Made by a program: the position numbers and the translations under genes. This document shows positions 46,618-64,000 of a stretch of 64,000 nt of DNA, in pieces (the stretch's first letter is position 1; each line of letters starts with the position of its first letter). The DNA comes from an uncultured Clostridia bacterium (GTDB taxonomy: Bacteria; Bacillota; Clostridia; Christensenellales; Aristaeellaceae): positions 17-64,016 of the forward strand of contig CAMJUL010000007.1 of the NCBI GenBank assembly GCA_946408995.1, given 5' to 3'. The notes under the pieces were generated by a model. It did not search any database, was not told where the DNA came from, and was given only the letters and a program-made list of their open reading frames with translations.

Positions 46618-47058
46618 AAATACGCCTCGTAAATAAACAAGCGATTTTGGAAAAAGCATTGTGTCTTTGCCGTCTGCTGCAGTCCGGGCTCTTTCAGGCT
46701 GAACGGCGGACACGGGAGGGCAACATCGCCAGGCTGGATCCCGGAACGGAAAAGCGTCAGCACGCTTCAGGAAGGAAGGGCTGTATCAAGGGCAGGGGAG
46801 CCCCTTTTTGGCAGACGATAAAGCGGGGAGCAAAGAGGAGAAAAAAGAAGATCCCTTTTCTGCGTATCGTAGAGCCATCTGCGGATCTTGCCGGCGTCCC
46901 CGCAGGGAAAGAAACAGGCGTTGAACAGACGGCTGCGGTCCATCAGGTGTAGGCCAAGAGATCAGCAAAGGAAAGGAAGTGCGGAAGGGGGAGCAAAAGA
47001 GGAGTCCTTGAGCCGTGAGGCCTGACAAAGAGCACGGTTTCCATTGGGTGAAAAGGGA

Positions 47059-47687: not shown

Positions 47688-47867
47688 AAATTGATTGTAT
47701 GGTAAGGTGGATTAGACTTCCTGTACAATGTATTTTTATCCTTTTTAATGTATGGCTCATACGGGCATTTGTTCGGGATACACACGGGGTCCGCGAAGGG
47801 GGATCACAGAGATCGATCCGACTGTGAACGCTTTTCGCCGGTTCCACGGATGGAGGATGCATCGCGA

Positions 47868-49283
47868 ATGAAAAAAAGCATTGATCTTGGCAAGCTGATG
47901 CTTTTTATTCTGAAAAACAGCTGGCTCGTTATTCTTTGCGCAGCCATCTGCTTTGGTGTCATGTACTGGCGCACTGCCAGCAGGCAGGTGGATACCTATA
48001 CGGCTTCCGGCACCATGTATGTATACAACGGCAACCCGAATCTGGTCAATTATCAGTATACAAGTACTTCCGATCTGAACAGCGCCATTCAGCTTCTGGA
48101 CACCTATTCGGTGGTCGTCAGGAGCAACAAGGTCCTGGATGCCGTGGCCGAGCGGCTCAGTGCGGATTATCCGGGAATTACCCCTGAATTTATCAACTCC
48201 ACCCTTTCCATGGGTTCTGTATCGGATACCGGCGTGATGCGGATCAGCTGCACGTCCACCGCGGCCCAGCTTTCTGCGGACATCTGCAACGCCGTTTTGG
48301 ACGTGGCGCCCGCGGAGATCATCCGTGTGGTCAATGCCGGCGGAATCGAAATTATCGATTACGCCGCAGTTCCGGAATCGCCCAACAGTCGGAACCCGAT
48401 GATGAAGGGAGCTATCGGAGGCCTTGCCGGTGCGGTGCTGGCGGCTGGGGTGCTCAGCGTTTTGTTTCTTGTGAACCAAAGGGTCGGCTCCGCCAAGGAA
48501 CTGACGGACAGCTATACCCCGCCGGTGCTGGCGGAGGTTTGCCTGGACAAACGGAAAAACGATCAGAACGGGCATTTTTTGCTGACGGCCCAAAGCCCCA
48601 TGGAGATCACGGAAAGCTACGCAAAGCTTCGCATGAACCTTTCCTACACCCTGGTCGGGAAGAACAGCCGTGCTGTCATGATCACCAGCTCCATTTCCGG
48701 GGAGGGGAAATCCACCATCGCGGCCAACCTGGCCATTTCCTGCGCCCTGAGCGGGCGAAAAGTGCTTCTGGTGGACGCGGATATGCGCCGGGCCTGTCAA
48801 AAGGACCTGTTCATGCTGGAGGACGGGCTTCCGGGACTGTCTGATGTGCTTGCAGGCAGCTTCAGATGGCAGGATGTCATCCTGCCTCAGGCGGAACGGG
48901 GGATCGACCTGCTTCCTGCCGGGCATATCCCTCCCAACCCCGCGGAACTTCTGGAATCCGGGGAGATGGAACGGCTGCTGGGCGAGCTGGCCGGGGCGTA
49001 TGATCTGATCCTGGTGGATTCCCCTCCGATCAACATCGTATCGGACCCGGTGGCACTGGCAAACAAGGTTGCCGGCGCGTTGTTTGTGGTGCGGCAGGGG
49101 GTTTCCGAACACCGGGAGATACGCCAGGCGCTCAATACGGCCGAGCTGGTCAACCTGAACCTGCTGGGCTTTATCTTCTATGCAAACAATCCCCGCAAAG
49201 GCTCCTATTACAGCAAAAAATACTACAAGTATTATCACCAGTACGACAAAAGAGGCCAGGACCAACAGAAAGGAAACGTTTGA
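47868..49283 (+). CDS. Fused chain-length-regulator (Wzz/CpsC-like) and BY-tyrosine-kinase (CpsD/Wzc-like) protein
   Basis: Start at ATG 47868 (GGAGG upstream). N-terminal TM, Wzz-like domain and second TM, then Walker A SGEGKST, Walker A' VLLVDADMRR, Walker B LILVDSPP, and the C-terminal Tyr cluster SYYSKKYYKYYHQY. Confidence 0.85.
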   Translation: MKKSIDLGKLMLFILKNSWLVILCAAICFGVMYWRTASRQVDTYTASGTMYVYNGNPNLVNYQYTSTSDLNSAIQLLDTYSVVVRSNKVLDAVAERLSADYPGITPEFINSTLSMGSVSDTGVMRISCTSTAAQLSADICNAVLDVAPAEIIRVVNAGGIEIIDYAAVPESPNSRNPMMKGAIGGLAGAVLAAGVLSVLFLVNQRVGSAKELTDSYTPPVLAEVCLDKRKNDQNGHFLLTAQSPMEITESYAKLRMNLSYTLVGKNSRAVMITSSISGEGKSTIAANLAISCALSGRKVLLVDADMRRACQKDLFMLEDGLPGLSDVLAGSFRWQDVILPQAERGIDLLPAGHIPPNPAELLESGEMERLLGELAGAYDLILVDSPPINIVSDPVALANKVAGALFVVRQGVSEHREIRQALNTAELVNLNLLGFIFYANNPRKGSYYSKKYYKYYHQYDKRGQDQQKGNV

Positions 49284-49297
49284 AGGAGTCTGTAAAC

Positions 49298-52200
49298 ATG
49301 AGGGAAAAAGCGGGAAAATGGATTTTGCTCCTTCTGCTGACGCTGTGTCTGTCCAGCTGCTTTGTTTGGTCGGCTTTGGCCGAAAACGTTTTCGCCCTTA
49401 CTCTGCCCACAGTTACCGAAACGGACTGCGTTTGGGACGGGGAAGGGAACCTGATCAGCGAGACGGCGCATGACCTTTCCGGCGCGCCGGCGCTGAATCA
49501 GAGGGGCTTCTTCAGAGGCGAGTATACCTGGGACGCTCACGGAGATCTTCTCTCGGAGCGGTACTACGGGCTGAACGGAGAGCCTGTCGTGACGGACGCC
49601 GGCTATGCCTGGGCGGAATATACCTATTATATTGATTCCGATGATGTCGCCCATGTGCTGACGGTGGACCGGTACGCCGCGGACGGATCCCGGGCGGAGG
49701 TGCCGGGCAGCTACAGCTACCGCAGAGACGCCTACCAGGACGATATGCTTTTGTACAGCGAATACTTTGATGCTGCGGGACAGTATACCCGGCCCACCGG
49801 CGGATATGCCCGTATCCTAGTGGATCATCAAAACGTCGGGAGCGTGCTCCGGCTGACTTTCCGGTACCTGGACGCGGACGGAAGTCCGCTGATCGGGCCG
49901 GACGGCGGGGCCGTGATGGTTTCGGAATATACCTACTGCTATATGACAGAAGACGGGGAAAAGGTGTTTCTGGACCCGAGAACAGCGGATCCGGAGGACC
50001 CGCTCTGGGGGCTGGAGCTGGATACGGAAAAACGGCTGGGCGTCAAGAAGCACTGGCTGCTCCTCTCCCGGGAGATCTTTGGGAAGGACGGTTCCCCTAC
50101 CCTGGGCACCCACCATTTCCACCGCCAGAAAAACACCTATGACGCGCATTACAATCTCGTCCGTACGGACTATTTCGGGGTGGAGGAAGAGCCTGTGATG
50201 GCGACCACCGGGTATGCCTCCATCGTGAATACCTACGACTCCATCGACCGGCTGATCCAGGTGGATTATCTGGACCGGCAAGGGGCTTTGGTTAAGATGG
50301 TCAACGGCTACGCCAGGATCAAATATGCGTATTATGGAAGTACCGATGTCCTTCACTACGAATGGTATTTTGGCGCGGACGGCATGCGCACCATGCGTAC
50401 GGAAGGTTATTCCATGGCGGAGCACGAATACAATGGCCCGGACTATGATTACCGCATTACCTATTACGACATCATCGACGAATACACCATGATGGATCAG
50501 GGCTTTGCCCGGATCGAATACAAGTTTTACGGGCAGCGGGGCTACAGGGAGAACAGCGGCACCTGGATTCTCCGTCTGGCGGATATCCTGTGGGAAAAGT
50601 ATTATGGCGTGGATATGCGCCTGATCCAGACCAAGGCCCATTACGCGGGGTACCTCAATGATTACAACGGGAACGGGCAGGTCATCAGGACCACCTATAT
50701 GGACGAAAACTGGGTCCCTGTCCGCAATGATGAAAAGCAGTTCGCGATCATCGAATATCAGTACAAGGGCACCCGGAAGGACGACCCACCTGTATACGAA
50801 GCGTATTTTGATGAAATGCATGTTCCCTGCGAGGGGATCACAGGGGCCTACGCCCGTTCCATGGTCTATGGCGGGCCCAAGGAAAACCTGCTGTTTGAGG
50901 AATGCTTCTTTGACGCCAATGGGGGGAAAACCGTAAGCATTGAGAACAATGCCCATCGGGTGACGTATTATTACAGCGGCAACCTGTCCGGGGGCGAGCT
51001 GGTACAGACCCGCGTATGCTATTACGACGTGGACGGCAGTCCCATCGGCAACCATGTCGGGGTCGCCGCCATGTACAGGGAGTACAGGCATGACGGCGGG
51101 CTTCTGTGGGAAATGGCTTTCGACAAGGACGGGAAGCTGACCGTATCCGGCAGCCATGCCGCTGCCCAGCTGCACACATATGATTACGCCGGCCAGGCGA
51201 ACTGGGATGTGTTCTTTGGGACGGACGGCCTGCCGGTGACCCACAAGGCGGGGTATTCCGCCGTGGCCTATCGGCACGATTTGGACGGAAATATCACGGA
51301 AACGACCTATTACAACGCCGAAGGGGATCCTGCGGCTGTTTCCGGCAGGGCAAGGATCGTCAGGACCTATGACGACAGCCACCGCGTTGTCTATGAGGCC
51401 TATTATGGGACGGATCTGAAGCCTGTGCGGGTGGATACAGGGTATGCTGCAAGGCGCATTGAACGGGACAGCCGGACAGGACTCCTTACCCGTGAGGCCT
51501 TTTATGACGAAAACGACAAGCCCGTCCAGCTTTCCAGCGGCTATTCGTCCTATATCGTTGAATATGACCTGAACAGGGTCCGGACCAAAGTCGCGTACTA
51601 TGATGTGAACGGGAATCCGGTCGCGCCTCCGTCTGTCCGCTACGCCTGGTATGAGCGGCAAACGGACGAACACGGAAACATCCTGGAGGAAGCCTATTAC
51701 AACCCGGACGGCAGCCTGATCGTCAACCGGGACGGCTATTCCGTGACGGTGATGACCTATGACGTCAACGATTATCGGACCAGCGTTACCTATCTGGATA
51801 CCGCCCGGAAACCGGTGCTTACTGCCTTGGGCTATGCCCGGGTGGAAGAGACCTACGACGCCCACGGGAACCAGCTCAGCGCGGCGTATTTTGACGCTGC
51901 CCTGAAGCCGATGGTTCTTCAGGAGGGATGGCATCGGGTCCTCTATGCGTGGGATCCCGAGAACCGCAAGCTGTCCGAGGCCTATTTCGATGCGCAGGGG
52001 ATGCCCGTTGAATGTCCCTTTGGGTATGCCTCCTTCGCGAGGGAATATGATACAAACGGCAATCTGATCCGTGAGGTGTATTACGGGACCGATGGCCGCG
52101 TCACCAATGTGACGGCCGGCGCTGCCCTGATGGAGCGGGAGTATGATACCCGGAACCGTCTTCTGAGCGAAAGGTATTATGACGAAACAGGCCTCCCCTT

Positions 52201-55192: not shown

Positions 55193-55209
55193 AAGGAAAG
55201 GACGCGAAC

Positions 55210-56286
55210 ATGAACAAAATCAGAACGCATGGGTTTGGCAAAGCTTCTCTGCGGCGCTTGGCGGCGATGCTCCTCTTTGTATGCCTGGTATGCTCCGCCG
55301 CCCTGGGAGAAGGCAGGGACCGTTCCAACGCCGATTGGGTCAACTTTCTCCTGCTGTGCAACGAAGGAATGAACAACGACAAAGGGAACGCCGGCAACAC
55401 CATGATGGTTGTGGCCATGCATCCGACCACCGGACGCATACGTCTAATGATGTTCTGTTGGGACACCTTTATCGATTATGAGGGGTATGACCTGCCGCAG
55501 ACGCTTGATATGCCGTACCGCAACAATGGGCCGGCCGAAACCATGAAGGTCTTCGACGAGAACTTTGGCATGCATATCCATCTTTTTATGTCCATCAACT
55601 TCCTTAATCTGGCTTCCCTGATCGATTATTACGGGGGGGTCACCGTGGATGTGACCCGGGCGGAACGGAACGCCCTGAACGGCATGGTCTCCTCCAAAAA
55701 GGAACAGCTCAAAGCCCAGGCTGCCACCGGCCTTCTCAGCCAGATCTTGCTGGATTCACTGGCAACGGAATACTATATCAGCGATTTCGGTCCGGAAACC
55801 CATCTGAACGGGCTGCAGGCGGTGGGTTTCGGCTGGCTTCAGTATGATTCCGTTTACAATTGCTGCGAACGGTCCGTGGAAGTGATTGCCAGCCTCTTTT
55901 CCAGCGTTGCAAAGCATATCAATGAACAGGTCATCCTGTATACGGACGAAACCGGCTATCCGGACGACACCTACGGCAAACGTCCCGTCAACCTGGACCA
56001 GGTGACGGAGGAAGACATGGATTTCCTGCACGAGGCCATCGGCCCGATTTTCCAGAAATCCTTCCACGACCTGAAGGAGGACGAAATCGACTCCATCACC
56101 CTGACACTGGCCCGGGTGGCCTATCAGGCGTCCCGGCAGGGGTTCGATCTATTCAGCGCGCTGGACCACACGGTCCTTCCCCTGGAAGCCAATGATGAAT
56201 ATGTGATCATTGCCGGGGCGAAGGGGCATGTGATCGATAAGCAGGCCAATATCAAGGCGATCAGGGAATTCCTTTACAAGGATTGA
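55210..56286 (+). CDS. LytR-CpsA-Psr (LCP) family glycopolymer ligase
   Basis: N-terminal TM, then the LCP core NFLLLCNEG...NTMMVVAMHP...FMSINFLNLASLIDYYGGVTVDV. Confidence 0.85.
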   Translation: MNKIRTHGFGKASLRRLAAMLLFVCLVCSAALGEGRDRSNADWVNFLLLCNEGMNNDKGNAGNTMMVVAMHPTTGRIRLMMFCWDTFIDYEGYDLPQTLDMPYRNNGPAETMKVFDENFGMHIHLFMSINFLNLASLIDYYGGVTVDVTRAERNALNGMVSSKKEQLKAQAATGLLSQILLDSLATEYYISDFGPETHLNGLQAVGFGWLQYDSVYNCCERSVEVIASLFSSVAKHINEQVILYTDETGYPDDTYGKRPVNLDQVTEEDMDFLHEAIGPIFQKSFHDLKEDEIDSITLTLARVAYQASRQGFDLFSALDHTVLPLEANDEYVIIAGAKGHVIDKQANIKAIREFLYKD

Positions 56287-56367
56287 ACAAAGTCAATAAA
56301 ACATCTGCGCCCGGCAGCAGCGGCAAAGTGCGGAGGGACGGGTACAAAAGAGGGATGGTGATGTGCT

Positions 56368-58329
56368 TTGGATGAGAACACGAACAGAACCCCTGTCAGG
56401 TTGCGGGGCATGCTCCTGGCTTACGATTTGGGGATCTACCTGGTTTTGGGTATCCTGATCGTCGGCTTTTACCCCTCCTATGTTGAAAAACTTGGCTTCT
56501 GGGATGTGGTCACCAATATCCTCGTGGGGTTGTTGTGTATCTTCCTTCCCAGACTTGCGATCGGGATCTACAACTATATCTGGCGTTACGCGGGGGCGGA
56601 GGAGTTCATCAACCTGATCTTCGCGGATATCATCGGCCTGGTCCTTTTCCTGGCCGTTGGAAGGATCATTCCGCAGCCGCTGACCTTTATCCATACGGTG
56701 TCGCTGGTTGCCTTCAACCTGTTGATCAATATTTCTCTGCGCCTTGTCTACGTATACATTTACAGACAGCGCAGCAGCAACGCCTTTGCGGAGCAGTGGG
56801 CCCTGCAGCTCCTCCGGCTCTTTACGGGGGTCAATTTTCATATGGAAACGCCCACCAACGCGGACAGGCGCATCAAGATCGCCATTGTGGGCGCGGGAAG
56901 CATCGGCGCCATGCTGGCGGAAGAACTGCAGGGCAATCCCAAGGCCCCTTATCAGGTGGTCTGCTTTGTTGATGTCAATCAGGAAAAAACAGGGCGGAAT
57001 ATTCTGGGCATCCGTGTGCTCGGGGAAGGGGTCAACCTGCATTCTCAAATGGAAGCCCTGGGCGTGCAGGAAGTAGTCATCGCGCTTCCCAATGCCTCTC
57101 CGGAGACCAAGCAGCAGATGTACGACCTGTACAGGGGGTATGGATACCGGGTCAAGGCCTACGATTATCCCACCATCGAAAACGGCGCCAACTCCAGGCC
57201 TCAGATGCGTGAATTCAACATTGAGGAACTGCTATTCCGCAGGGAAGAAACCTTTGTGGAAGAAAAAACGAAGGCGTGGTATCGCGGCAGACGGGTATTG
57301 ATCACGGGGGGCGGCGGCAGCATCGGCAGCGAGCTGGCCCGGCAGGTAGCCCACATGGAGCCGGAACTGCTGGTTTTGCTGGACATCTACGAAAATGGGG
57401 TTTATGATATCCAGCAGGAGCTCAAGTTCAAATATGGCGATAAGCTGAAGCTGCAGGTGGAGATTGCCAATGTCTGTGACCGCTCCGCTATGGAAGCGAT
57501 TTTTGCGACCTACCGGCCTGACATCGTTCTGCACGCGGCGGCCCACAAGCATGTGCCGCTGATGGAGCATAACTGCTGCGAAGCGGTGCGAAACAATGTG
57601 TTTGGGACCCTGACCACCGTGGAGACCAGCGAAAAATACGGGGTCAAACGGTTCATCATGATCAGCACGGACAAGGCGGTCAACCCCACCAATGTGATGG
57701 GAGCCACCAAGCGGGTATGTGAGATGATCGTGCAGAGCCGTACCGGAAGCGGGACCTCCTTCAGCGCCACACGCTTTGGCAATGTGCTGGGCAGCAACGG
57801 GTCTGTGATCCCCCTGTTTCGCCGGATGATCGAGAATGGCGGTCCTGTGACCATCACGGACAAGCGCATCATCCGGTATTTTATGACCATTCCGGAAGCC
57901 AGCCAGCTGGTGCTCACCTCCGGCGCCATGGCCAGCAACGGGGAGCTGTATGTGCTGGATATGGGCAAGCCGGTCAAGATCATTGAACTGGCGGAACGCA
58001 TGATCCGCATGGCCGGCCGGGAGCCCTACAAGGACATTGATATTGTGGAAATCGGGCTGCGTCCCGGGGAAAAACTGTATGAAGAGCTTTTGATCCGCGG
58101 GGAAAACATCGGCAATACCGACAACAAAATGATCTTCATCGAACGGGATAAACCCCTCTCCAGGGAAGAAATGGACGGCCGCATCGAAATCCTGAGGGAG
58201 GCGCTGGTAAGCGGCAGCGATGACGAGCTTCGCCAGGCACTCAAACGGGTTTTGCCCACGTACCGTTCTCCGGAGGAGGTCAACCGCAATGCGGAGCATG
58301 CGGAGGAAATGAAGACCCTCGCCCAATAA
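56368..58329 (+). CDS. Membrane-bound NDP-sugar 4,6-dehydratase (CapD/PglF/WbpM family)
   Basis: TTG start. Four N-terminal TM segments, two Rossmann motifs (VGAGSIGAML and ITGGGGSIGSEL), and the short-chain dehydrogenase core HAAAHKHVP. Confidence 0.85.
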   Translation: MDENTNRTPVRLRGMLLAYDLGIYLVLGILIVGFYPSYVEKLGFWDVVTNILVGLLCIFLPRLAIGIYNYIWRYAGAEEFINLIFADIIGLVLFLAVGRIIPQPLTFIHTVSLVAFNLLINISLRLVYVYIYRQRSSNAFAEQWALQLLRLFTGVNFHMETPTNADRRIKIAIVGAGSIGAMLAEELQGNPKAPYQVVCFVDVNQEKTGRNILGIRVLGEGVNLHSQMEALGVQEVVIALPNASPETKQQMYDLYRGYGYRVKAYDYPTIENGANSRPQMREFNIEELLFRREETFVEEKTKAWYRGRRVLITGGGGSIGSELARQVAHMEPELLVLLDIYENGVYDIQQELKFKYGDKLKLQVEIANVCDRSAMEAIFATYRPDIVLHAAAHKHVPLMEHNCCEAVRNNVFGTLTTVETSEKYGVKRFIMISTDKAVNPTNVMGATKRVCEMIVQSRTGSGTSFSATRFGNVLGSNGSVIPLFRRMIENGGPVTITDKRIIRYFMTIPEASQLVLTSGAMASNGELYVLDMGKPVKIIELAERMIRMAGREPYKDIDIVEIGLRPGEKLYEELLIRGENIGNTDNKMIFIERDKPLSREEMDGRIEILREALVSGSDDELRQALKRVLPTYRSPEEVNRNAEHAEEMKTLAQ

Positions 58330-58368
58330 GTGCTGCGAATGAATTACGAATTGAAAAGAGGAATACGC

Positions 58369-59676
58369 ATGGATTTCAGGCAGGATCCCCGTTTCTCGGA
58401 GTTTGTCCCCTTTGAAAGCAAGCTATGGCTCAGTTCCCCCACCATGCACGGACAGGAGCAGCATTGGGTGGATGACGCCATCCGGACCAACTGGGTCTCC
58501 ACGGTGGGGGCCAACATCAACGAGATCGAAAAGGAAGTGGCCCGCTATGTGGGCTGCGGGTATGCTGTGGCGCTTACCTGCGGAACCGCGGCCCTGCACC
58601 TGGCCACCAAACTGGCCGGGGAGCGGCTGTATGGACAGGCCAGGCCGGACAGGGGCACCCTGGCCGGGAAAAGGGTCTTCTGCTCGGACGTGACCTTTGA
58701 CGCTTCCATCAATCCGGTGGCCTATGAGGACGGAGAGGCCGTTTTTATCGATACGGAACGGGATACTTGGAACATGGACCCGGCCGCGCTGGAAAAGGCC
58801 TTTGAGCTCTATCCCGATACCCGTCTGATCGTGCTGGCGCATCTGTACGGAACGCCTGCCAAAATGGCGGAGATCCGGAGGATCGCCGATGCCCACGGCG
58901 CCCTGATTGTAGAGGATGCGGCGGAAAGCCTGGGGGCCAAATACCGCTTGAACGGCAAGTGGGTCGAAACCGGGGCCCTGGGGGACTTCAACTGCATCTC
59001 CTTTAACGGGAACAAGATCATTACCGGCTCCTCAGGCGGCATGTTCCTGACCGATTCCCGGGAGGATGCCGAAAAGGTGCGCAAATGGTCGACCCAGAGC
59101 CGGGAAAACGCCCCCTGGTACCAGCATGAGGAGATCGGGTATAATTACCGCATCAGCAACATTGTGGCCGGGGTCGTCCGCGGTCAGCTGCCCTGGCTGG
59201 ATCAGCACATCGCCCAGAAAAAGGCCATCTACGAGCGTTACCTGGAAGGCTTCAAGGGACTGCCGGTCACCATGAATCCCTATGACGCCGAAAGCAGTGA
59301 ACCCAATTACTGGCTCAGCTGTCTTCTGATCGACCGGGAAGCCATGGCTCCCCATGTCCGCGGGGAACGGGATGCCCTTTATAAGCACGAGCACGGTAAA
59401 AGCAGCCCTACGGAGATCCTGGACGCCCTGCAGGCCTTCAACGCGGAAGGGCGCCCCATCTGGAAGCCGATGCACATGCAGCCCATTTACCGCTCTAACG
59501 CCTTCGTGACCGCGGAGGGAACGGGCAGGGGCAGGAGCAACGCTTATATCCAGGGGGAAGGATTGGACGTAGGCGCGGATCTGTTTGCCAGAGGGCTTTG
59601 CCTGCCGAGTGATAACAAGATGACCGCGGAGCAGCAGGATGTGGTGATCAAGATCGTATCTGCGTGCTTTGACTAA
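58369..59676 (+). CDS. DegT/DnrJ/EryC1/StrS-family PLP-dependent sugar aminotransferase (PglE/EpsN-like)
   Basis: Start at ATG 58369. LTCGTAALHLA, EDAAESLGA and SFNGNKIIT (PLP lysine) motifs. Confidence 0.85.
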   Translation: MDFRQDPRFSEFVPFESKLWLSSPTMHGQEQHWVDDAIRTNWVSTVGANINEIEKEVARYVGCGYAVALTCGTAALHLATKLAGERLYGQARPDRGTLAGKRVFCSDVTFDASINPVAYEDGEAVFIDTERDTWNMDPAALEKAFELYPDTRLIVLAHLYGTPAKMAEIRRIADAHGALIVEDAAESLGAKYRLNGKWVETGALGDFNCISFNGNKIITGSSGGMFLTDSREDAEKVRKWSTQSRENAPWYQHEEIGYNYRISNIVAGVVRGQLPWLDQHIAQKKAIYERYLEGFKGLPVTMNPYDAESSEPNYWLSCLLIDREAMAPHVRGERDALYKHEHGKSSPTEILDALQAFNAEGRPIWKPMHMQPIYRSNAFVTAEGTGRGRSNAYIQGEGLDVGADLFARGLCLPSDNKMTAEQQDVVIKIVSACFD

Positions 59677-59738
59677 GCTGCACATCCTTTTTTTGAATGG
59701 TGCGAAGGATTGTAATTTGAATTTGACGGAGGAATTCC

Positions 59739-60704
59739 ATGAATATCCTGATCCTTAGTGTGGGAACACGCAATAAGATCGTCCAGTATTTTAAAAAAAG
59801 CATCACCGGAAAAGTCGTTGTGACAGATATGTCTCCAATTGCGCCTGCAATTTTTGAGGCGGACAGCTATTATATTGTTCCGGCGATTACAGCACCTAAT
59901 TACATAGACATGATTCTGGATATTTGTATAAAGGAAAAAATCAATGCAGTAATGTCTTTGATCGATCCGGAATTGTCATTGCTTGCCCAAAACATCGACA
60001 GGTTTTCCGGCGTTGGCGTGATGGTGATCGGCTCGTCTTACGAATTATGCGAAATGTCGCTGGACAAAATGAAAATGTTTGCTTTTTGCAGGCAGAACGG
60101 GTTCAATTGTGCAGAAAGCTATGAATCGATCGCGCAGTTTGAATCGGCCCTCCGTCAAGACAGGATTTCTTTTCCGGTTTTTGTAAAGCCAATCAGGGGC
60201 AGCGCTTCCATCAATATCTCCAAAATCGACAACATGGAACTGCTCAATGTGGTTTTCAAGCAAAGCGATCAATTGATGATCCAGCAGTATCTTCGTGGTC
60301 AGGAAATTGGCGCGGATGTTTACATTGATATGGTTTCGGGGGAAATTGTTTCTATTTTCACAAAAAAGAAGATCCTTATGCGAGCGGGCGAGACGGATAA
60401 AGCAGTAAGCTTTAAGGAAGACAGATTGTTCGAATATATAGAGCGTTTTGTGAAGGTTGCCGGATTCCGCGGGCAGATCGATATCGATCTTTTTGACATC
60501 GATGGCGAATACTACATTTCGGAAGTGAATCCACGCTTCGGCGGCGGATACCCCCACGCGTACGAATGCGGGTGCGATCATATGAAACTGATCGAAAACA
60601 ATGTGAACGGGATTGCCAATACAAGACAGATCGGCAATTATCAATCCGGCATTTACATGATGAAATACAACGAAATCAAGATTTGCCAGGATATCCGGTC
60701 CTGA
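59739..60704 (+). CDS. ATP-grasp enzyme (carboxylate-amine ligase type)
   Basis: 321 aa. FPVFVKPIRGSAS, MIQQYLRGQEIGADVY and ISEVNPRFGGGYP, typical of the ATP-grasp fold. This is the first gene of the low-GC block. Confidence 0.75.
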   Translation: MNILILSVGTRNKIVQYFKKSITGKVVVTDMSPIAPAIFEADSYYIVPAITAPNYIDMILDICIKEKINAVMSLIDPELSLLAQNIDRFSGVGVMVIGSSYELCEMSLDKMKMFAFCRQNGFNCAESYESIAQFESALRQDRISFPVFVKPIRGSASINISKIDNMELLNVVFKQSDQLMIQQYLRGQEIGADVYIDMVSGEIVSIFTKKKILMRAGETDKAVSFKEDRLFEYIERFVKVAGFRGQIDIDLFDIDGEYYISEVNPRFGGGYPHAYECGCDHMKLIENNVNGIANTRQIGNYQSGIYMMKYNEIKICQDIRS

Positions 60705-60737
60705 TCGTCTGGAACAAATGCGACATATAGTTTTTTC

Positions 60738-61412
60738 ATGCTGGGAGGGATAACATTGTACCGGACCTATATTAAGCGTTTGCTGGATTTTGTTCTATCC
60801 TTGTGTGCCATTATCGTCCTCTCTCCAATTATGCTTGTGCTGACGATTGCGGGCTTCTTCGCAATGAAAGGGAACCCATTCTTTTTTCAGGAACGGCCGG
60901 GATTGCATGAAAAGATTTTTACGCTTATCAAATTCAGGACAATGACCAATGAAAAAGACGCGGACGGAAAATTGCTGCACGATGAAGACCGTCTGACTTC
61001 CTATGGCAAGTTTTTAAGGTCGACCTCTCTGGACGAGCTTCCGGAGCTCTTTAATATCCTGAAGGGGGACCTTTCTATTGTAGGGCCCCGCCCATTGCTG
61101 GTGAGGTATCTGCCTTTTTATACTGAAGAAGAACATCACAGGCATGACATCCGTCCGGGTCTGACAGGATATGCGCAAGTCCATGGCAGGAATTATGTCA
61201 AGTGGGAAGAAAAATTTAAAATGGATCTTTGGTACGTTAAGCATGTTTCCTTTAAAACGGACCTTCGTATCCTGTTGGACACGGTCATCGTTGTTTTAAA
61301 GAGGGAGAATATCGAGACCGCCAGTATTATCGTCCATGATGGTGTGACTTATCAGCCCTTTGATGTTGAACGGAAGGCCCAATGGGAAAGGGAGGGGCAT
61401 CATGAACAATAA
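60738..61412 (+). CDS. Small monotopic phosphoglycosyl transferase (PglC/WbaP C-terminal type bacterial sugar transferase)
   Basis: One N-terminal hydrophobic helix, then KFRTM, SLDELPQL-like SLDELPELFNILKGDLSIVGPRP and PGLTGYAQV. Confidence 0.85.
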   Translation: MLGGITLYRTYIKRLLDFVLSLCAIIVLSPIMLVLTIAGFFAMKGNPFFFQERPGLHEKIFTLIKFRTMTNEKDADGKLLHDEDRLTSYGKFLRSTSLDELPELFNILKGDLSIVGPRPLLVRYLPFYTEEEHHRHDIRPGLTGYAQVHGRNYVKWEEKFKMDLWYVKHVSFKTDLRILLDTVIVVLKRENIETASIIVHDGVTYQPFDVERKAQWEREGHHEQ

Positions 61413-62718
61413 TAAAAAGAATGTATTGGTATTTCCAAGCCCTGTATATCCGGCTTTGCAGGTGATCGATTGCCTGAAACACTGTTTGCAGGTCCATGTA
61501 ATTGCGGGGGCAAGCTATTCAAACCATGCCGAATACATTTGCGATGACACAATCTGTGATATGCCCTATATCACTTCGGAGGGGTTCCTGGACTATTTGA
61601 TTGGACTGGTCCATGACAGAGCCATTGATTTGATTATCCCTACAGATGATACGGCGGCATTGTTCCTGTCCGAACATGCAGAGGAAATCCCCGCCAAAGT
61701 CGTGTGTTCCCCGTATGAAACGGCGAAGATCTGCCGCTATAAAAGCCTGACCTATGAGGTTTTAAAGGGCAAATCTTATATCCCCAAAGCATACTCCGTG
61801 GATGAAATAGATCAGATTGAAGATTATCCGGTTTTTATCAAACCGGATATCGGAGCCGGGTCCAGGGGGGCCACGAAGATTTATTCTGCGGAACAGTTGA
61901 AGAATGTAAAAGAACTTGAAAACTATGTGATTTGTGAGTATCTGCCCGGGGAAGAATATACCATCGACTGTTTTACTAACAAGGACAGATCCCTGCTGTT
62001 TTGCAATCCCCGGGTCCGGTCCCGATTGATCAACGGGAAAACAGGCAGGGGCCACAATGTTGCTTTGACGGATGAGATGCGGGCGATCATTGAATCGCTG
62101 AATGAATCCATCGTTTTCCGCGGGTATTGGTTTGCACAGTTAAAAAGAGATGCACAAGGCAAATTAAAGCTGCTGGAGATTTGCACAAGGTTTTCCGGTT
62201 CATTCGTTTTCAGCAAAAGCAGGGGGGTTAATCTTCCGCTTCTTGCAGTTTGTGATTTTTCGGGGATCCCTGCGGATGTTGTCGTGAATGATTATGAGGT
62301 GGAATGCGATAAATCCTATATCGACAGGATCCGTATCAGCTACCCGTATAATCATCTGTACATTGATTTTGACGATACGATCACCTCTGAGGGTGGGAAG
62401 AACGTTAATCCTTATGTGATGGCCTATCTGTATCAATGCAGGGCAAAAAATATTAAAATCTCTTTGATATCACGGCATGCTGTTTCTAAAAAAGAAAGTT
62501 TGGAAGACGCCTTCAGCAGACTATGTATTTCGAAAGATCTGTTTGATGAAATTATCGAACTGGATTGGGATGAACTGAAATCGAATAAAATCGAGGATGT
62601 ATCCAAAAGCATTTTTCTGGACAACAGTTTTAAGGAACGGAAAGAAGTGCACGACAAACTTGGGATTCCGGTTTTTGATCTTTGCAATCTGGATGCTTTA
62701 TTTGATTGGAGAGCGTAA
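61402..62718 (+). CDS. Fusion of an ATP-grasp domain with a C-terminal HAD-like phosphatase domain
   Basis: Start at ATG 61402 (GGGAGGGG upstream, overlapping the previous gene by 11 nt). ATP-grasp blocks YPVFIKPDIGAGSRG and ICEYLPGEEYTIDCF. The C-terminal part has the HAD motif I YIDFDDTIT. Confidence 0.7.
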   Translation: MNNNKKNVLVFPSPVYPALQVIDCLKHCLQVHVIAGASYSNHAEYICDDTICDMPYITSEGFLDYLIGLVHDRAIDLIIPTDDTAALFLSEHAEEIPAKVVCSPYETAKICRYKSLTYEVLKGKSYIPKAYSVDEIDQIEDYPVFIKPDIGAGSRGATKIYSAEQLKNVKELENYVICEYLPGEEYTIDCFTNKDRSLLFCNPRVRSRLINGKTGRGHNVALTDEMRAIIESLNESIVFRGYWFAQLKRDAQGKLKLLEICTRFSGSFVFSKSRGVNLPLLAVCDFSGIPADVVVNDYEVECDKSYIDRIRISYPYNHLYIDFDDTITSEGGKNVNPYVMAYLYQCRAKNIKISLISRHAVSKKESLEDAFSRLCISKDLFDEIIELDWDELKSNKIEDVSKSIFLDNSFKERKEVHDKLGIPVFDLCNLDALFDWRA

Positions 62719-62720
62719 TC

Positions 62721-63737
62721 ATGCAAAATGAAAACAATTTGATCAGCGTTGTCGTGCCGGCATACAATGTTGAAAAATACATTGAAAAATGCGTAGACAG
62801 TCTTCTTCAGCAAGAACTAGACTGCAAATATGAAATCATTCTCGTAGATGATGGATCCACAGATGGAACAAGCAGTTTGATTGATTCTTTTGCTGAGAAC
62901 AATAAAAACATTTATGCCTATCATAAAAGCAATGGCGGATTGTCCAGCGCAAGAAACTATGGAATTCTGCATTCCAGCGGGAATTTGATTACTTTTGTTG
63001 ATTCTGATGATTACGTCTCCAGGACTTACCTGAAGGACATGCTGTATCTTTTGCAAAAATATGATGCAGATATGTCAATTACGAAAGTGGTACTCAGGAC
63101 GCCAGGGCAAGAACTTAGAAGTGTTTTTTCAGATTTTCTTGTAGACCGTAAAGAAGCACTTTATGAAGTGTATTGTAATGATCGTATCAGCTGGCTTGCC
63201 GTTGGAAAACTATATAAGCGAGAGGTTTTCGCGGATGTACTTTTCCCTGATGGATATTATGAAGATCAAGCCAGCTCATATAAGTTTATTGATAAATGCG
63301 ATAAGGTTTCGATTGGTGATTACAGGAATAATTACTATTACATTCAACGCGATGGAAGCATTTCATTTTCCAAGTTTAATCCCAAGCACTTAAGAGCATT
63401 TGAAATATGTGAGGAATTTTCGGATTATGTAAAGAAGACTTATCCGGACATGTTTTATATTGTGATTATGACCTGCCAAAAGTCGGTTCAGCTTCTTTTA
63501 AACAGATTGGTCACGACAAGAGAAGAATTTAATCGGATTTATTATAAATACCGCGGCATGTTCAGAAGCAATGCTGGCAGTATACTTAAAAACAGCAGGA
63601 TTCCAACTCGGTCCAAGATTTATTACATTGTGATGTGTTCTACGCCATTCATTTATAAGCTGTTCTCAGGAAGTATTCAAATGCTTGGAACGCTCAAACG
63701 AAAGCTTATGAGCTATCGCCAAAGACAAGACGGATAA
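62721..63737 (+). CDS. Family 2 glycosyltransferase
   Basis: ISVVVPAYNVEKYIEKCVDSLLQQ, ILVDDGSTDGT and FVDSDD (DXD) motifs. Confidence 0.85.
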   Translation: MQNENNLISVVVPAYNVEKYIEKCVDSLLQQELDCKYEIILVDDGSTDGTSSLIDSFAENNKNIYAYHKSNGGLSSARNYGILHSSGNLITFVDSDDYVSRTYLKDMLYLLQKYDADMSITKVVLRTPGQELRSVFSDFLVDRKEALYEVYCNDRISWLAVGKLYKREVFADVLFPDGYYEDQASSYKFIDKCDKVSIGDYRNNYYYIQRDGSISFSKFNPKHLRAFEICEEFSDYVKKTYPDMFYIVIMTCQKSVQLLLNRLVTTREEFNRIYYKYRGMFRSNAGSILKNSRIPTRSKIYYIVMCSTPFIYKLFSGSIQMLGTLKRKLMSYRQRQDG

Positions 63738-63904
63738 ATCTCATCTGAGAGTTCTTTCATTTTGTTGTTTGAATTTGCATTGCAATATTGCTAAAAGCAT
63801 AGCCTCGTGTTTCAAAAAATGTCTATTCAAATCATTGTTCATTCGCTTAAACTACTCCAACGGATTTAGAAACGTTTAGACCGATTGAGAGGTGTAGAAC
63901 GGAT

Positions 63905-64000
63905 ATGCTTAATCTGATTGTGTTTGGATTGTCAGACGATATAGGCGGCGTAGAAAACTATCTTCTTCATATGCAGCATGAACTTGAAACCAGGGTTTGC
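63905..64000 (+). CDS. 5' end of a further gene, possibly a GT4-type glycosyltransferase (truncated by the window edge)
   Basis: MLNLIVFGLSDDIGGVENYLLHMQHELETRVC. The G-G-x-E motif near the N-terminus is common in GT4 enzymes. Only 32 codons are visible. Confidence 0.35.
   Translation, partial: MLNLIVFGLSDDIGGVENYLLHMQHELETRVC

What the first reader, a model, noticed from the sequence alone, without database searches (positions are those of the whole stretch)
56368..62718. Bacillosamine-type initiating-sugar module in which two ATP-grasp enzymes replace the usual N-acetyltransferase
Seen: a PglF/CapD-like 4,6-dehydratase, a DegT/PglE-like aminotransferase and a PglC-like small phosphoglycosyltransferase are present, but no left-handed-beta-helix acetyltransferase. 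Instead, an ATP-grasp ligase lies between the aminotransferase and the transferase genes. An ATP-grasp domain fused to a HAD-like phosphatase domain (DxDxT motif YIDFDDTIT) follows, overlapping the transferase gene. Established: dehydratase plus aminotransferase plus acetyltransferase makes UDP-diNAcBac-type sugars. In Neisseria the pglB2 allele carries an ATP-grasp domain instead of the acetyltransferase domain, and the glycan then bears a glyceramido group in place of the second acetamido group. Inference: the 4-amino group of the initiating sugar is probably acylated with a carboxylic or amino acid by an ATP-dependent ligase. The second enzyme could add a further residue, or ligate a phosphorylated acid that its HAD domain then dephosphorylates. 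This would give an unusual N-acylated di-amino-trideoxyhexose.
Basis: partly seen in the sequence, partly recalled or inferred. Interest (0 to 1): 0.65.

Follow-up and report, generated by a model that had tools for sequence, protein, structure and literature searches.

The report
Two ATP-grasp ligases replace sugar acetyltransferase
A capsule-sugar gene cluster from a sheep-gut bacterium makes an amino sugar but, in place of the usual acetylating enzyme, carries two ATP-driven amide-forming enzymes: one belongs to a very common type with a known biochemical precedent, and the other is fused to a phosphatase and belongs to a widespread family for which I found no studied member.

Summary
On the + strand lie a PglF-type dehydratase, a PglE-like aminotransferase, an ATP-grasp protein (AG1), a PglC-like small phosphoglycosyltransferase (PGT) and an ATP-grasp–HAD fusion (AGH). 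No left-handed-beta-helix acetyltransferase lies in the locus or in the 3.2 kb I could recover downstream.

Bacillus cereus Pyl is an ATP-grasp enzyme shown to ligate 2-oxoglutarate to a UDP-4-amino sugar. AG1 belongs to a very large family (NF009406, PDB 2PN1). Its usual context is DegT–PGT–AG1: a PGT precedes AG1 in 58 of 67 metagenome loci.

AGH is the more interesting part. Full-length relatives occur in 404 species genomes. All HAD motifs are invariant and the fold is MDP-1-like. It usually lies near a sugar aminotransferase (69 of 80 loci) and is translationally coupled to its own PGT type. I found no characterised member.

No other locus examined (0 of 160) combines AG1 and AGH. The window has two ligases but only one evident amine source, and this is unexplained.

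Most likely, AG1 N-acylates the 4-amino group, and AGH ligates a phosphorylated metabolite that its HAD domain then dephosphorylates. Substrates and order of action are inferred. I rate it a new variant of a known kind, of moderate interest.

The parts
47748..49283 (+). Wzz chain-length domain fused to a BY-kinase-like P-loop ATPase (CpsC/CpsD-like). It belongs to the conserved 5' part of the polysaccharide locus.
   Evidence: Pfam Wzz plus AAA_31/CbiA/ParA
55210..56286 (+). LCP (LytR-CpsA-Psr) glycopolymer-to-wall ligase
   Evidence: PF03816, E 5e-12
56368..58329 (+). Membrane-anchored PglF/WbpM/CapD-type UDP-GlcNAc 4,6-dehydratase
   Evidence: Polysacc_synt_2, E 1e-113. TDK...MxxxK motif in the sequence (motif from PMC8987622). 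GC 0.557, like the genome.
58330..59676 (+). PglE-like PLP sugar 4-aminotransferase (DegT family)
   Evidence: PF01041, E 5e-68. Best PDB hit is C. jejuni PglE, 1O61/4ZTC, 202 bits. GC 0.590.
59677..59738 (.). Junction between the conserved (genome-like GC) and variable (low GC) parts of the locus
   Evidence: GC falls from 0.59 (GC3 0.75) to 0.435 (GC3 0.54) across this spacer. Contigs from independent runs span the junction.
59739..60704 (+). AG1: stand-alone ATP-grasp carboxylate-amine ligase of the 2PN1/NF009406 family. It is the positional equivalent of B. cereus Pyl.
   Evidence: NF009406, 503 bits against a cutoff of 271. 2PN1, E 4e-93, 46% identity. More than 8000 database relatives. 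The family context is DegT-PGT-AG1.
60738..61412 (+). PglC-like small monotopic phosphoglycosyltransferase (initiating enzyme)
   Evidence: Bac_transf, E 4.5e-61. 229 bits to PglC, 8G1N. It is closest (65-78% identity) to PGTs paired with AGH in other loci, and 58-64% identical to those paired with AG1.
61402..62307 (+). AGH, N-terminal ATP-grasp ligase domain (residues 1-302)
   Evidence: ATPgrasp_Ter, E 1.7e-17, and ATP-grasp_3, E 2e-9. AF2 model pLDDT 93. Top Foldseek hits are 2PN1 and PylC. The start codon overlaps the PGT stop region by 11 nt.
62308..62718 (+). AGH, C-terminal capless HAD phosphatase-like domain (residues 303-438)
   Evidence: Invariant DxDDT, (S/T)(R/K)H, K and F(I/L)DN..ER motifs, which also hold in a 34%-identical Cupriavidus homologue. 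AF2 pLDDT 91. Top Foldseek hits are the BF1531 phosphatase domain (3SLR), MDP-1 and the T4 PNK phosphatase.
62721..63737 (+). Family-2 glycosyltransferase, first of the repeat-unit GTs. GT4, GT2 and an EpsG-like polymerase follow beyond the window.
   Evidence: PF00535, E 2e-34. The downstream genes are on L001, which is 100% identical to 61007-64000.

Best explanation
This is the start of the variable region of a Wzy-dependent capsule/exopolysaccharide locus of an uncultured ruminant-gut Firmicute.

Shown by homology: the PglF-type dehydratase and the PglE-like aminotransferase convert UDP-GlcNAc to a UDP-2-acetamido-4-amino-2,4,6-trideoxyhexose, and a PglC-like PGT places that sugar phosphate on undecaprenyl phosphate.

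Inferred from synteny and precedent: the 4-amino group is not acetylated by a CoA-dependent transferase. Instead it is amidated by an ATP-grasp ligase through an acyl-phosphate intermediate. AG1 is the prime candidate for this step. It is the counterpart of B. cereus Pyl, which adds 2-oxoglutarate. The acid AG1 uses here is unknown.

Inferred, lower confidence: AGH is translationally coupled to the PGT and co-inherited with it. I propose it is a second carboxylate-amine ligase whose partner substrate carries a phosphate ester, for example 3-phosphoglycerate giving a glyceroyl amide, or a phospho-amino or phospho-hydroxy acid. Its fused MDP-1-like HAD domain would remove the phosphate after ligation. 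In most related loci AGH would act directly on a sugar amine. In this window only one sugar amine is evident, so AGH and AG1 most likely build a two-unit N-acyl side chain in sequence. The order of action and both substrates are unknown.
For: Domain assignments.

No acetyltransferase: none in the locus or in +3.2 kb.

AG1 family synteny: a PGT directly precedes AG1 in 58/67 loci, and DegT plus PGT lie upstream in 45/52. The R. bromii-like loci read DegT-PGT-AG1-GT4. A natural PGT+ATP-grasp fusion exists in this family, next to a DegT fusion.

AGH conservation: 404 species genomes encode full-length fusions. The HAD motifs are invariant. The fold is a HAD phosphatase fold.

AGH context: a DegT gene is present in 69/80 loci. 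These include two independent amino-sugar routes: PglF/PglE-like in Clostridia, and RmlA/RmlB/DesI-like in Bacillus pumilus.

Split versions: separate genes in the order DegT-PGT-ATP-grasp-HAD occur in Priestia and in L003.

Amine accounting: PIG-L deacetylase appears only where another N-acylating enzyme already occupies the 4-amine (L003, L006-8, L139, L145). AG1 and AGH occupy the same slot in otherwise similar loci (L139/L145 against L006).

Other points: the ligate-then-dephosphorylate logic is experimentally established for Cj1438C/Cj1435. The locus appears transcribed across its gene junctions in a sheep-gut metatranscriptome. Both ligases keep their family-conserved residues.
Against: There is no biochemical or structural-chemistry evidence for any substrate.

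I could not obtain the sequence of Pyl or of Neisseria PglB2, so AG1's orthology to Pyl rests on fold, family and gene position only.

The window breaks the 'one ligase per amine' pattern: two ligases, one DegT and no deacetylase.

AGH here lacks its usual neighbours, the divergent PLP-fold protein 'unk335' and a FemAB-like protein. Its role in this window may therefore differ from its role elsewhere.

The nearest AGH relatives (L175, L177) have no DegT within 8 kb.

The AGH family has Cys/Ser in place of the Mg-binding Asn of the ATP-grasp E-x-N motif.

The HAD domain falls below every curated HMM cutoff. Its closest structural relatives do not reveal a substrate.

An acetyltransferase further downstream or elsewhere in the genome cannot be excluded.
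Confidence: 0.5

Rival explanations
1. AGH works in the direction of the Campylobacter Cj1438C/Cj1435 pair. It would activate a carboxylate already on the glycan and amidate it with a phosphorylated amine (ethanolamine-P, serinol-P or phosphoserine). The carboxylate could be the free end of a dicarboxylic acid added by AG1, as Pyl adds 2-oxoglutarate, or a pyruvyl or uronic carboxylate of the repeat unit. The HAD domain would then remove the phosphate.
For: The experimentally proven precedent has the same enzyme logic in a capsule locus (PMC11800397). In most loci AGH sits beside a PLP-fold protein (DegT, or the divergent 'unk335'). This recalls the Cj1437 (PLP) / Cj1438C / Cj1435 triad. It would also resolve the 'two ligases, one amine' problem, because AG1 would create the carboxylate that AGH consumes. 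Pyruvyl-transferase genes occur in several AGH loci.
Against: AGH shows no detectable sequence similarity to Cj1438C or Cj1435 (BLASTP E >= 0.5, negative profile scores). AGH's ligase domain belongs to the 2PN1/PylC clade together with AG1. No UDP-glucose dehydrogenase appeared in any annotated AGH locus. Most AGH loci have no AG1 to supply a carboxylate (0/80). The DegT next to AGH in Bacillus is DesI-like and lies with RmlA/RmlB, so it is a sugar aminotransferase. The window lacks the PLP partner.
Confidence: 0.22
2. The pairing is a recent recombination product. AG1 and AGH would be alternative, functionally equivalent N-acylation systems that came to lie in one locus. Only one would be needed, or they would compete and give a mixed or heterogeneous side chain.
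For: AG1 and AGH occupy the same position in otherwise similar loci (L139/L145 against L006). No other locus of 160 has both. The gene order DegT-AG1-PGT differs from the family norm DegT-PGT-AG1. The whole block downstream of DegT is low-GC, horizontally acquired DNA. The window's PGT belongs with AGH, not with AG1. AG1 differs from its family at 9 of 152 near-invariant positions, including a Tyr that is invariant in 119 relatives.
Against: Both ORFs are intact, keep their catalytic and family-conserved residues, and are covered by metatranscriptome contigs. AG1, PGT and AGH have nearly the same GC (0.435, 0.455, 0.434), as expected if they arrived together or have coexisted for a long time.
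Confidence: 0.15
3. The 4-amino group stays free, giving an AAT-type zwitterionic polysaccharide as in Bacteroides PSA, or it is acetylated by an enzyme encoded elsewhere. The ATP-grasp enzymes would then act on unrelated substrates.
For: Free 4-amino sugars made by dehydratase plus aminotransferase plus small PGT are well known (WcfR/WcfS; PMC11626204). About 5 kb of the source contig beyond L001 could not be inspected. Hexapeptide acyltransferase genes occur further downstream in 19 of 80 AG1-type loci.
Against: AG1 is linked extremely tightly and widely to DegT-PGT, including gene fusion. AGH overlaps the PGT gene. The downstream 189-aa hexapeptide proteins in related loci lack a PglD_N domain and look like O-acetyltransferases. 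The Pyl precedent also argues against this reading.
Confidence: 0.08

Closest known systems
Bacillus cereus ATCC 14579 Pat/Pyl pathway (UDP-yelosamine; Hwang et al., J Biol Chem 2014, 289:35620, as cited in PMC11626204 and PMC8987622)
   Same: [quoted passage not shown] The genes lie directly upstream of a small monotopic PGT. The window's order, dehydratase-aminotransferase-AG1-PGT, matches that description.
   Different: I could not obtain the Pyl sequence, so orthology is untested. The acid used here is unknown. The window adds a second ligase fused to a phosphatase. I found no mention of a phosphatase partner for Pyl in the papers I could read.
Neisseria PglB2 (PGT domain fused to an ATP-grasp domain; makes glyceramido-acetamido-trideoxyhexose, GATDH; PMC11130364, PMC6959607)
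   Same: An ATP-grasp domain takes the place of the acetyltransferase in a diNAcBac-type pathway and is physically tied to the PGT. Here the AGH gene overlaps the PGT gene, and the AG1 family includes true PGT fusions (P0280). pglB2 always arrives with an extra ORF of unknown function ('ORF8'; PMC11130364, PMC3338715). This parallels the second component here.
   Different: In the window the PGT and the ligases are separate proteins. Sequence similarity to PglB2 and the nature of ORF8 could not be tested. The glyceroyl product here is only a hypothesis.
Campylobacter jejuni Cj1438 C-terminal amidoligase plus Cj1435 HAD phosphatase (PMC11800397)
   Same: An ATP-dependent amide ligase in a capsule locus uses a phosphorylated co-substrate, and a HAD phosphatase then removes the phosphate. 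AGH fuses these two activities in one chain.
   Different: There is no sequence similarity. Cj1438C's sequence looks to me like a TupA-type ATP-grasp (my reading, not tested here), whereas AGH is 2PN1/PylC-like. Cj1435 is a capped HAD of about 210 aa, and AGH's domain is a capless MDP-1-like HAD of about 135 aa. In Campylobacter the sugar supplies the carboxylate (GlcA) and the amine carries the phosphate. AGH's polarity is unknown.
Canonical diNAcBac pathway (PglF, PglE, PglD, PglC of C. jejuni; EpsC/N/M/L of B. subtilis)
   Same: The dehydratase, aminotransferase and small PGT are clear homologues: PglE 202 bits, PglC 229 bits.
   Different: The PglD/EpsM-type left-handed-beta-helix N-acetyltransferase is absent and is replaced by ATP-grasp ligases.
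PDB 2PN1 (Exiguobacterium sibiricum 'carbamoylphosphate synthase large subunit', structural genomics) and PylC (4FFL)
   Same: 2PN1 is 46% identical to AG1 and is the top structural match of AGH's ligase domain. PylC, a carboxylate-to-amine ligase, is the nearest functionally characterised fold relative.
   Different: 2PN1 has no assigned function. PylC joins two amino acids in pyrrolysine synthesis, not a sugar amine.

Membership tests
Pyl-type UDP-4-amino-sugar:carboxylate ATP-grasp ligase | ATP-grasp fold with nucleotide- and Mg-binding residues | tested here: met
   AG1 has PylC-like_N plus ATP-grasp_3 and scores 503 bits on NF009406. K110, K150, E189, E262, N264 and R266 are conserved in alignment A5.
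Pyl-type UDP-4-amino-sugar:carboxylate ATP-grasp ligase | Encoded with a UDP-GlcNAc 4,6-dehydratase, a 4-aminotransferase and a small PGT | tested here: met
   The window order is PglF-DegT-AG1-PGT. In the AG1 family a PGT precedes AG1 in 58/67 loci, and DegT plus PGT lie upstream in 45/52.
Pyl-type UDP-4-amino-sugar:carboxylate ATP-grasp ligase | Sequence orthology to B. cereus Pyl itself | not testable with these tools
   The JBC paper is not held. B. cereus was not among the hits of any search.
Pyl-type UDP-4-amino-sugar:carboxylate ATP-grasp ligase | ATP-dependent ligation of 2-oxoglutarate (or another acid) to the 4-amino group | not testable with these tools
   This needs an enzyme assay.
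NCBIfam NF009406 / PDB 2PN1 family | Whole-protein score above the curated cutoff | tested here: met
   AG1 scores 503.4 bits against a cutoff of 271. AGH scores only 76.6 bits and is not a member.
Neisseria PglB2 | ATP-grasp domain fused C-terminally to the PGT domain | tested here: not met
   In the window the PGT (60738-61412) and both ligases are separate ORFs. A fused form does exist in the AG1/2PN1 family (P0280, 538 aa).
Neisseria PglB2 | Sequence similarity of the ATP-grasp domain to PglB2, and similarity of AGH's HAD domain to the pglB2-linked ORF | not testable with these tools
   No Neisseria sequence was reachable, and the relevant papers are not held.
PglD/PglB-type diNAcBac pathway | Left-handed-beta-helix N-acetyltransferase (PglD_N plus hexapeptide) in the locus | tested here: not met
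   No Hexapep or LbH hit in window 45-64 kb, among the seven locus proteins, or in the +3.2 kb of L001. The rest of the genome was not seen.
HAD phosphatase superfamily (capless, MDP-1-like) | Motifs I-IV: DxDx(T/V), S/T, K, and acidic D..(D/E) | tested here: met
   D322, D324, D325, T326, (S/T)357 followed by H359, K393, D407, N408, E412 and R413 are invariant in 20-39 sequences down to 34% identity.
HAD phosphatase superfamily (capless, MDP-1-like) | Rossmannoid HAD fold | tested here: met
   The AF2 model of residues 303-438 has pLDDT 91. Top Foldseek hits are the 3SLR phosphatase domain (E 5e-5), MDP-1 (1U7P/2WM8) and the T4 PNK phosphatase.
HAD phosphatase superfamily (capless, MDP-1-like) | Match to a curated HAD profile above its cutoff | tested here: not met
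   No Pfam HAD hit. NCBIfam gives only weak hits over motifs I-II: Cof/HAD-IIB at E 1e-4 to 8e-3, far below cutoff. The PDB profile search found nothing significant.
Cj1438C amidoligase / Cj1435 phosphatase pair | Sequence homology to Cj1438C and Cj1435 | tested here: not met
   BLASTP E >= 0.1 and negative HMM scores against the sequences printed in the SI of PMC11800397.
Cj1438C amidoligase / Cj1435 phosphatase pair | A uronic-acid supply gene (UDP-glucose dehydrogenase) in the locus to provide the carboxylate | tested here: inconclusive
   None was seen in the Pfam-annotated AGH loci or in the window. The loci are incomplete, and other carboxylates are possible.
PglC-type small monotopic PGT | Single Bac_transf domain of about 200 aa with the Asp-Glu dyad, similar over its full length to PglC | tested here: met
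   PF02397, E 4.5e-61. 229 bits over residues 4-193 to 8G1N/8E37. 'LDELP' is present.
PglF/WbpM-type retaining UDP-GlcNAc 4,6-dehydratase | TDK...MxxxK catalytic signature and an N-terminal membrane domain | tested here: met
   'STDKAVNPTNVMGATK' is in the translation. The signature is as listed in Table 1 of PMC8987622. Polysacc_synt_2 plus CoA_binding_3.

The most novel reading that the evidence does not exclude
AGH is the first example of a single-chain 'ligase-phosphatase'. It would install hydroxyacyl groups on sugar amines directly from phosphorylated central metabolites, for example a glyceroyl amide from 3-phosphoglycerate. That would also explain Neisseria GATDH and the pglB2-linked ORF. 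In this window AGH would cooperate with a Pyl-type ligase to build a two-residue, peptide-like N-acyl chain on the initiating sugar. This would define a new and widespread route (404 or more species, including the Bacillus pumilus wall teichoic acid locus) for diversifying bacterial surface glycans.
Probability: 0.2. Interest if true: 0.7.

Novelty: new variant of a known kind. Interest (0 to 1): 0.5.

Why it matters
N-acyl decorations on the first sugar of capsules, O-antigens and protein glycans shape antigenicity and phage and immune recognition. How groups other than acetyl are installed is known for only a few cases.

This work shows that ATP-grasp ligases are the normal partner of DegT-PGT pairs in a large share of gut Firmicutes. 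That makes the B. cereus Pyl reaction look like the tip of a very large family.

It also singles out a second family, conserved across many phyla (the ATP-grasp-HAD fusion), for which no function has been tested. That family gives a concrete, cheaply testable hypothesis: ligation of a phosphorylated metabolite followed by built-in dephosphorylation. It also has cultivable test organisms (Bacillus pumilus, B. glycinifermentans, Trichococcus, Oribacterium).

The particular two-ligase combination in this window is rare. It may encode an unusually elaborate side chain, but this rests entirely on inference.

Tried and rejected
(1) Retrieving the rest of the source contig. The exact-protein look-up for AG1 found nothing. 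The look-up for AGH returned only a 6.2-kb identical contig, so only 3.2 kb downstream could be inspected.

(2) Obtaining B. cereus Pyl for a direct comparison. The JBC paper is not held. The related Bar-Peled and review papers give no sequence or locus tag. The SI of the PGT paper is not held. A plasmid tblastn found no Bacillus cereus hit. A homologue search seeded with 2PN1 returned Exiguobacterium and Clostridia but no B. cereus.

(3) Obtaining Neisseria PglB2 and its linked ORF. The key papers are not held. Other papers only say the ORF is a conserved hypothetical protein.

(4) Classifying the HAD domain by sequence. Pfam gave nothing, NCBIfam gave only sub-threshold hits, and the PDB profile search gave nothing. 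Only fold comparison worked. A Foldseek search with the full-length model was swamped by ATP-grasp hits.

(5) I considered that AGH is a homologue of Cj1438C/Cj1435 and rejected it: there is no similarity.

(6) I considered that the DegT next to AGH in Bacillus is a serinol-phosphate-type transaminase and judged it unlikely. It is DesI-like and lies with RmlA/RmlB.

(7) The promoter and terminator scan gave nothing above the shuffled expectation for terminators, and no intergenic terminator inside the block.

(8) Literature searches for WbqC and BF1531 gave nothing useful.

Full report
OBSERVATION. On the + strand the window encodes the following:
- an LCP ligase (55210-56286);
- a 653-aa membrane-anchored Polysacc_synt_2 dehydratase (56368-58329, E 1e-113);
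- a DegT-family aminotransferase (58330-59676);
- a 321-aa ATP-grasp protein, here AG1 (59739-60704);
- a 224-aa Bac_transf protein (60738-61412);
- an ATP-grasp protein with a C-terminal extension, here AGH;
- a GT2 (62721-63737).

The dehydratase carries the TDK...MxxxK signature that a review tabulates for PglF/WbpM enzymes. The aminotransferase's best solved relative is C. jejuni PglE (202 bits). The transferase matches C. concisus PglC over its full length (229 bits).

AGH almost certainly starts at ATG 61402, not at TTG 61360. GGGAGGGG lies just upstream, and the 438-aa product is the form found in the protein collection. It overlaps the PGT gene by 11 nt.

An identical 6.2-kb contig (L001) extends the locus by 3.2 kb: GT4, GT2 and an EpsG-like polymerase. 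A Wzz/BY-kinase gene lies upstream. This is therefore a Wzy-type capsule or EPS locus.

No hexapeptide or PglD-like protein was found in 45-64 kb or in L001.

Contigs from independent sheep-gut runs span the DegT/AG1, AG1/PGT and PGT/AGH junctions. Those from a metatranscriptome match at 100% identity. The arrangement is therefore real and is probably transcribed as one unit. DNA carry-over in the RNA library cannot be excluded. No intergenic terminator-like site lies inside the block.

A COMPOSITIONAL BREAK. PglF and DegT have the GC content of the rest of the window (0.56-0.59 against 0.555; GC3 about 0.74). Everything from AG1 onward is much lower: AG1 0.435, PGT 0.455, AGH 0.434, GT2 0.374, and the downstream genes 0.36-0.42. 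The 62-nt spacer between DegT and AG1 is thus the boundary between the conserved and the variable, horizontally exchanged part of the locus.

AG1 IS A MEMBER OF A HUGE FAMILY THAT IS ALREADY PARTLY UNDERSTOOD. AG1 passes the curated cutoff of NCBIfam NF009406 (503 bits against 271). It is 46% identical to the structural-genomics entry 2PN1. All 8000 candidates scored in the search were significant relatives, and the best 120 are 65-72% identical.

In Ruminococcus bromii-like genomes the gene order is DegT-PGT-AG1-GT4. I labelled 80 metagenome loci using the window's proteins as phmmer queries:
- a small PGT is the gene directly before AG1 in 58 of the 67 loci with enough upstream DNA;
- DegT and PGT are both upstream in 45 of 52.

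One relative is a natural PGT+ATP-grasp fusion beside a DegT fusion (P0280). This is the architecture reported for Neisseria PglB2 (PMC11130364).

B. cereus Pyl is an ATP-grasp protein shown to ligate 2-oxoglutarate to UDP-4-amino-FucNAc. [quoted passage not shown] So 'an ATP-grasp ligase instead of the N-acetyltransferase' is an established kind of pathway, and AG1 is most simply a new member of it. I could not obtain the Pyl sequence, so orthology remains untested.

AGH IS THE LESS ORDINARY COMPONENT. Its N-terminal 300 residues are an ATP-grasp domain, only 20% identical to AG1. An AlphaFold model (pLDDT 93, pTM 0.90) has 2PN1 and PylC as its top structural matches.

The last 136 residues have no Pfam hit and only sub-threshold NCBIfam hits to HAD-IIB and phosphoglycolate-phosphatase models. 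Every HAD catalytic motif is nevertheless invariant, even in a 34%-identical Cupriavidus homologue: DxDDT, (S/T)(R/K)H, Lys, and F(I/L)DN..ER. A model of this domain alone (pLDDT 91) matches the BF1531 phosphatase domain, MDP-1 and the T4 PNK phosphatase. These are small capless HAD phosphatases. The Asp at position +2 of motif I is the phosphatase/mutase signature (my own knowledge of the superfamily).

A scan of one genome per species found 404 genomes with a relative. The 80 best hits cover essentially the whole 438-aa query. They come from Lachnospiraceae, Oscillospiraceae, Bacillus pumilus, B. glycinifermentans, Trichococcus, Fibrobacter, Sphingobacterium, Flavobacterium, Treponema and candidate phyla. 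The only names attached to these proteins are 'ATP-grasp domain-containing protein' or 'hypothetical'. Literature searches found no characterised member.

CONTEXT OF AGH. A DegT gene is present in 69 of 80 loci, and within 3 kb in 61.

The closer relatives (42% identity or more) show [PglF]-DegT-PGT-AGH-'unk335'-FemAB-like. The PGT stop and the AGH start overlap or abut.

The remoter relatives show AGH-DegT-GT2-[PglF] or DegT-WbqC-unk335-AGH. In Bacillus pumilus, AGH lies in the wall teichoic acid locus. That locus has TagF-like genes, TagG/H and MnaA, together with RmlA- and RmlB-like genes and a DesI-like aminotransferase. So AGH accompanies two different amino-sugar routes.

'unk335' is a divergent DegT-like protein and probably has a PLP fold.

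Split versions also exist: DegT-PGT-ATP-grasp-HAD as four separate genes in a Priestia plasmid and in L003.

Three observations tie AGH to sugar amines.
(i) In Blautia-type loci, a thiolase, a 3-hydroxyacyl-CoA dehydrogenase and a hexapeptide acyltransferase should put a 3-hydroxybutyryl group on N-4. There a PIG-L de-N-acetylase gene is inserted just before AGH.
(ii) The same LbH-PGT-PIG-L arrangement occurs with AG1 in AGH's place (L139 and L145).
(iii) PIG-L was seen only in loci that already contain another N-acylating enzyme.

The simplest reading is that AG1 and AGH each need a free sugar amine and are alternative ways of filling it.

WHAT IS ODD ABOUT THIS WINDOW. None of the 80 AGH loci contains an AG1-family gene, and none of the 80 AG1 loci contains AGH.

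The window has both ligases, one aminotransferase and no visible deacetylase. It lacks AGH's usual partners, unk335 and the FemAB-like gene.

Its gene order, DegT-AG1-PGT, departs from the AG1 norm (DegT-PGT-AG1). It does fit the description that the B. cereus enzymes lie directly upstream of their small PGT.

Its PGT is 65-78% identical to PGTs paired with AGH but only 58-64% identical to PGTs paired with AG1. PGT-AGH is therefore a co-inherited unit, and AG1 is the addition.

Both ligases are intact. AGH differs from its family at 2 of 100 near-invariant columns. AG1 differs at 9 of 152, including a Tyr invariant in 119 relatives. That hints at a shifted specificity and nothing more.

MECHANISM. 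Shown by homology: UDP-GlcNAc is converted to the 4-keto-6-deoxy sugar, then to the 4-amino sugar, which is transferred to Und-P.

Inferred with fair confidence: N-4 is amidated by an ATP-grasp ligase, most likely AG1, by analogy with Pyl.

Inferred with low confidence: AGH ligates a phosphorylated metabolite, and its HAD domain removes the phosphate.

The best-documented analogy for that last logic is the Campylobacter pair. Cj1438C joins serinol phosphate to glucuronate, and the HAD enzyme Cj1435 then dephosphorylates the product (PMC11800397). However, AGH shows no sequence similarity to either protein. It may work like them but is not a member of their families.

Which partner carries the phosphate is open.
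- A phospho-acid such as 3-phosphoglycerate would yield the glyceroyl amide known from Neisseria GATDH. This is attractive because free glycerate is scarce whereas 3-PG is abundant, and because FkbH-type enzymes also draw glyceryl units from phosphoglycerate (PMC7489565). I recall that FkbH enzymes carry a HAD-like domain, but I did not verify that here.
- A phospho-amine would fit the Campylobacter polarity. It would also let AGH use a carboxylate created by AG1.

Because only one amine is evident here, I favour sequential action of the two ligases on one side chain. A redundant or competing pair left by recombination is a real alternative.

VERDICT. The kind of system is known (Pyl, PglB2). 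AG1 is a new member of that kind. AGH is an uncharacterised and widespread variant that deserves an assay. The combination of the two is rare and unexplained. Nothing here is categorically new, and every substrate assignment is inference.

Noticed in passing
window 49280-55192 (+): A 1970-aa ORF with an N-terminal signal-peptide-like segment. It carries dozens of degenerate repeats of about 45 aa ('GYA..EY.YD..GN...E.Y.D..G.P', reminiscent of YD/RHS repeats). It sits between the Wzz/BY-kinase gene and the LCP gene of the polysaccharide locus. It has no Pfam hit at E<=0.01. The long antisense ORFs across it (e.g. 49817-52387) are probably composition artefacts.
   Followed up: partly
window 59677-59738: A sharp GC break inside the operon. 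PglF and DegT have GC 0.56-0.59 (GC3 about 0.74). AG1, PGT and AGH have 0.43-0.46, and the GTs 0.36-0.42. This marks the border of the exchangeable serotype-type region.
   Followed up: yes
window 61402-62307 (AGH residues 259-263) and alignment A5: The AGH family has Cys or Ser where ATP-grasp enzymes normally have the Mg-binding Asn of the E-x-N motif. AGH reads 'E-I-C-T-R'; AG1 and 2PN1 read 'E-V-N-P-R'. AGH also has an invariant Arg-rich strand, 'NPRxRxR' (R204, R206, R208), that AG1 lacks.
   Followed up: no
L172:255-1871 (protein P0280): A natural fusion of a small PGT domain with an AG1/2PN1-type ATP-grasp domain (538 aa). An 820-aa CapK_C+DegT fusion follows it. This is the same architecture as reported for Neisseria PglB2, but in a metagenome contig.
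   Followed up: partly
L046:5925-16878 (Bacillus pumilus GM3FR); also L064 and L024: The ATP-grasp-HAD fusion is embedded in a wall teichoic acid locus. The locus has two TagF-like genes, TagG/H and MnaA, with RmlA-like, RmlB-like, DesI-like aminotransferase and GT2 genes. This predicts an N-acylated 4-amino-6-deoxyhexose decoration on the teichoic acid of the B. pumilus group.
   Followed up: partly
L006:5156-9990 (Blautia-type loci L006-L008); L139, L145: A cassette of 3-hydroxyacyl-CoA dehydrogenase, thiolase, a 300-aa hexapeptide acyltransferase, PGT and a PIG-L deacetylase. It is followed either by AGH-unk335-FemAB-like or by AG1. This suggests a sugar carrying 3-hydroxybutyryl on N-4 and a second, ligase-made acyl group on a de-acetylated N-2.
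   Followed up: partly
L006:11299-12306, L175:9341-10459 ('unk335'): A protein of 335-372 aa with no Pfam hit, or only a faint DegT hit, lies immediately after or before AGH in 25 of 80 loci. It looks like a divergent PLP-fold enzyme. A WbqC-like protein (PF08889) accompanies it in 15 loci. The window lacks both.
   Followed up: partly
window 54000-64000: Contigs of a sheep-gut metatranscriptome (run X1) cover the locus at 100% identity. One of them is a 6.2-kb contig from the PGT gene to the polymerase gene. Several ruminant-gut DNA runs hold 95-99% identical variants. The organism is therefore a ruminant-gut bacterium, and the locus appears to be expressed.
   Followed up: partly
window 44842-46713 (-): A 623-aa ORF with MatE (N-terminal) and HATPase_c_2 (C-terminal) hits. 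This is an unusual pairing that may be an ORF-calling merger.
   Followed up: no
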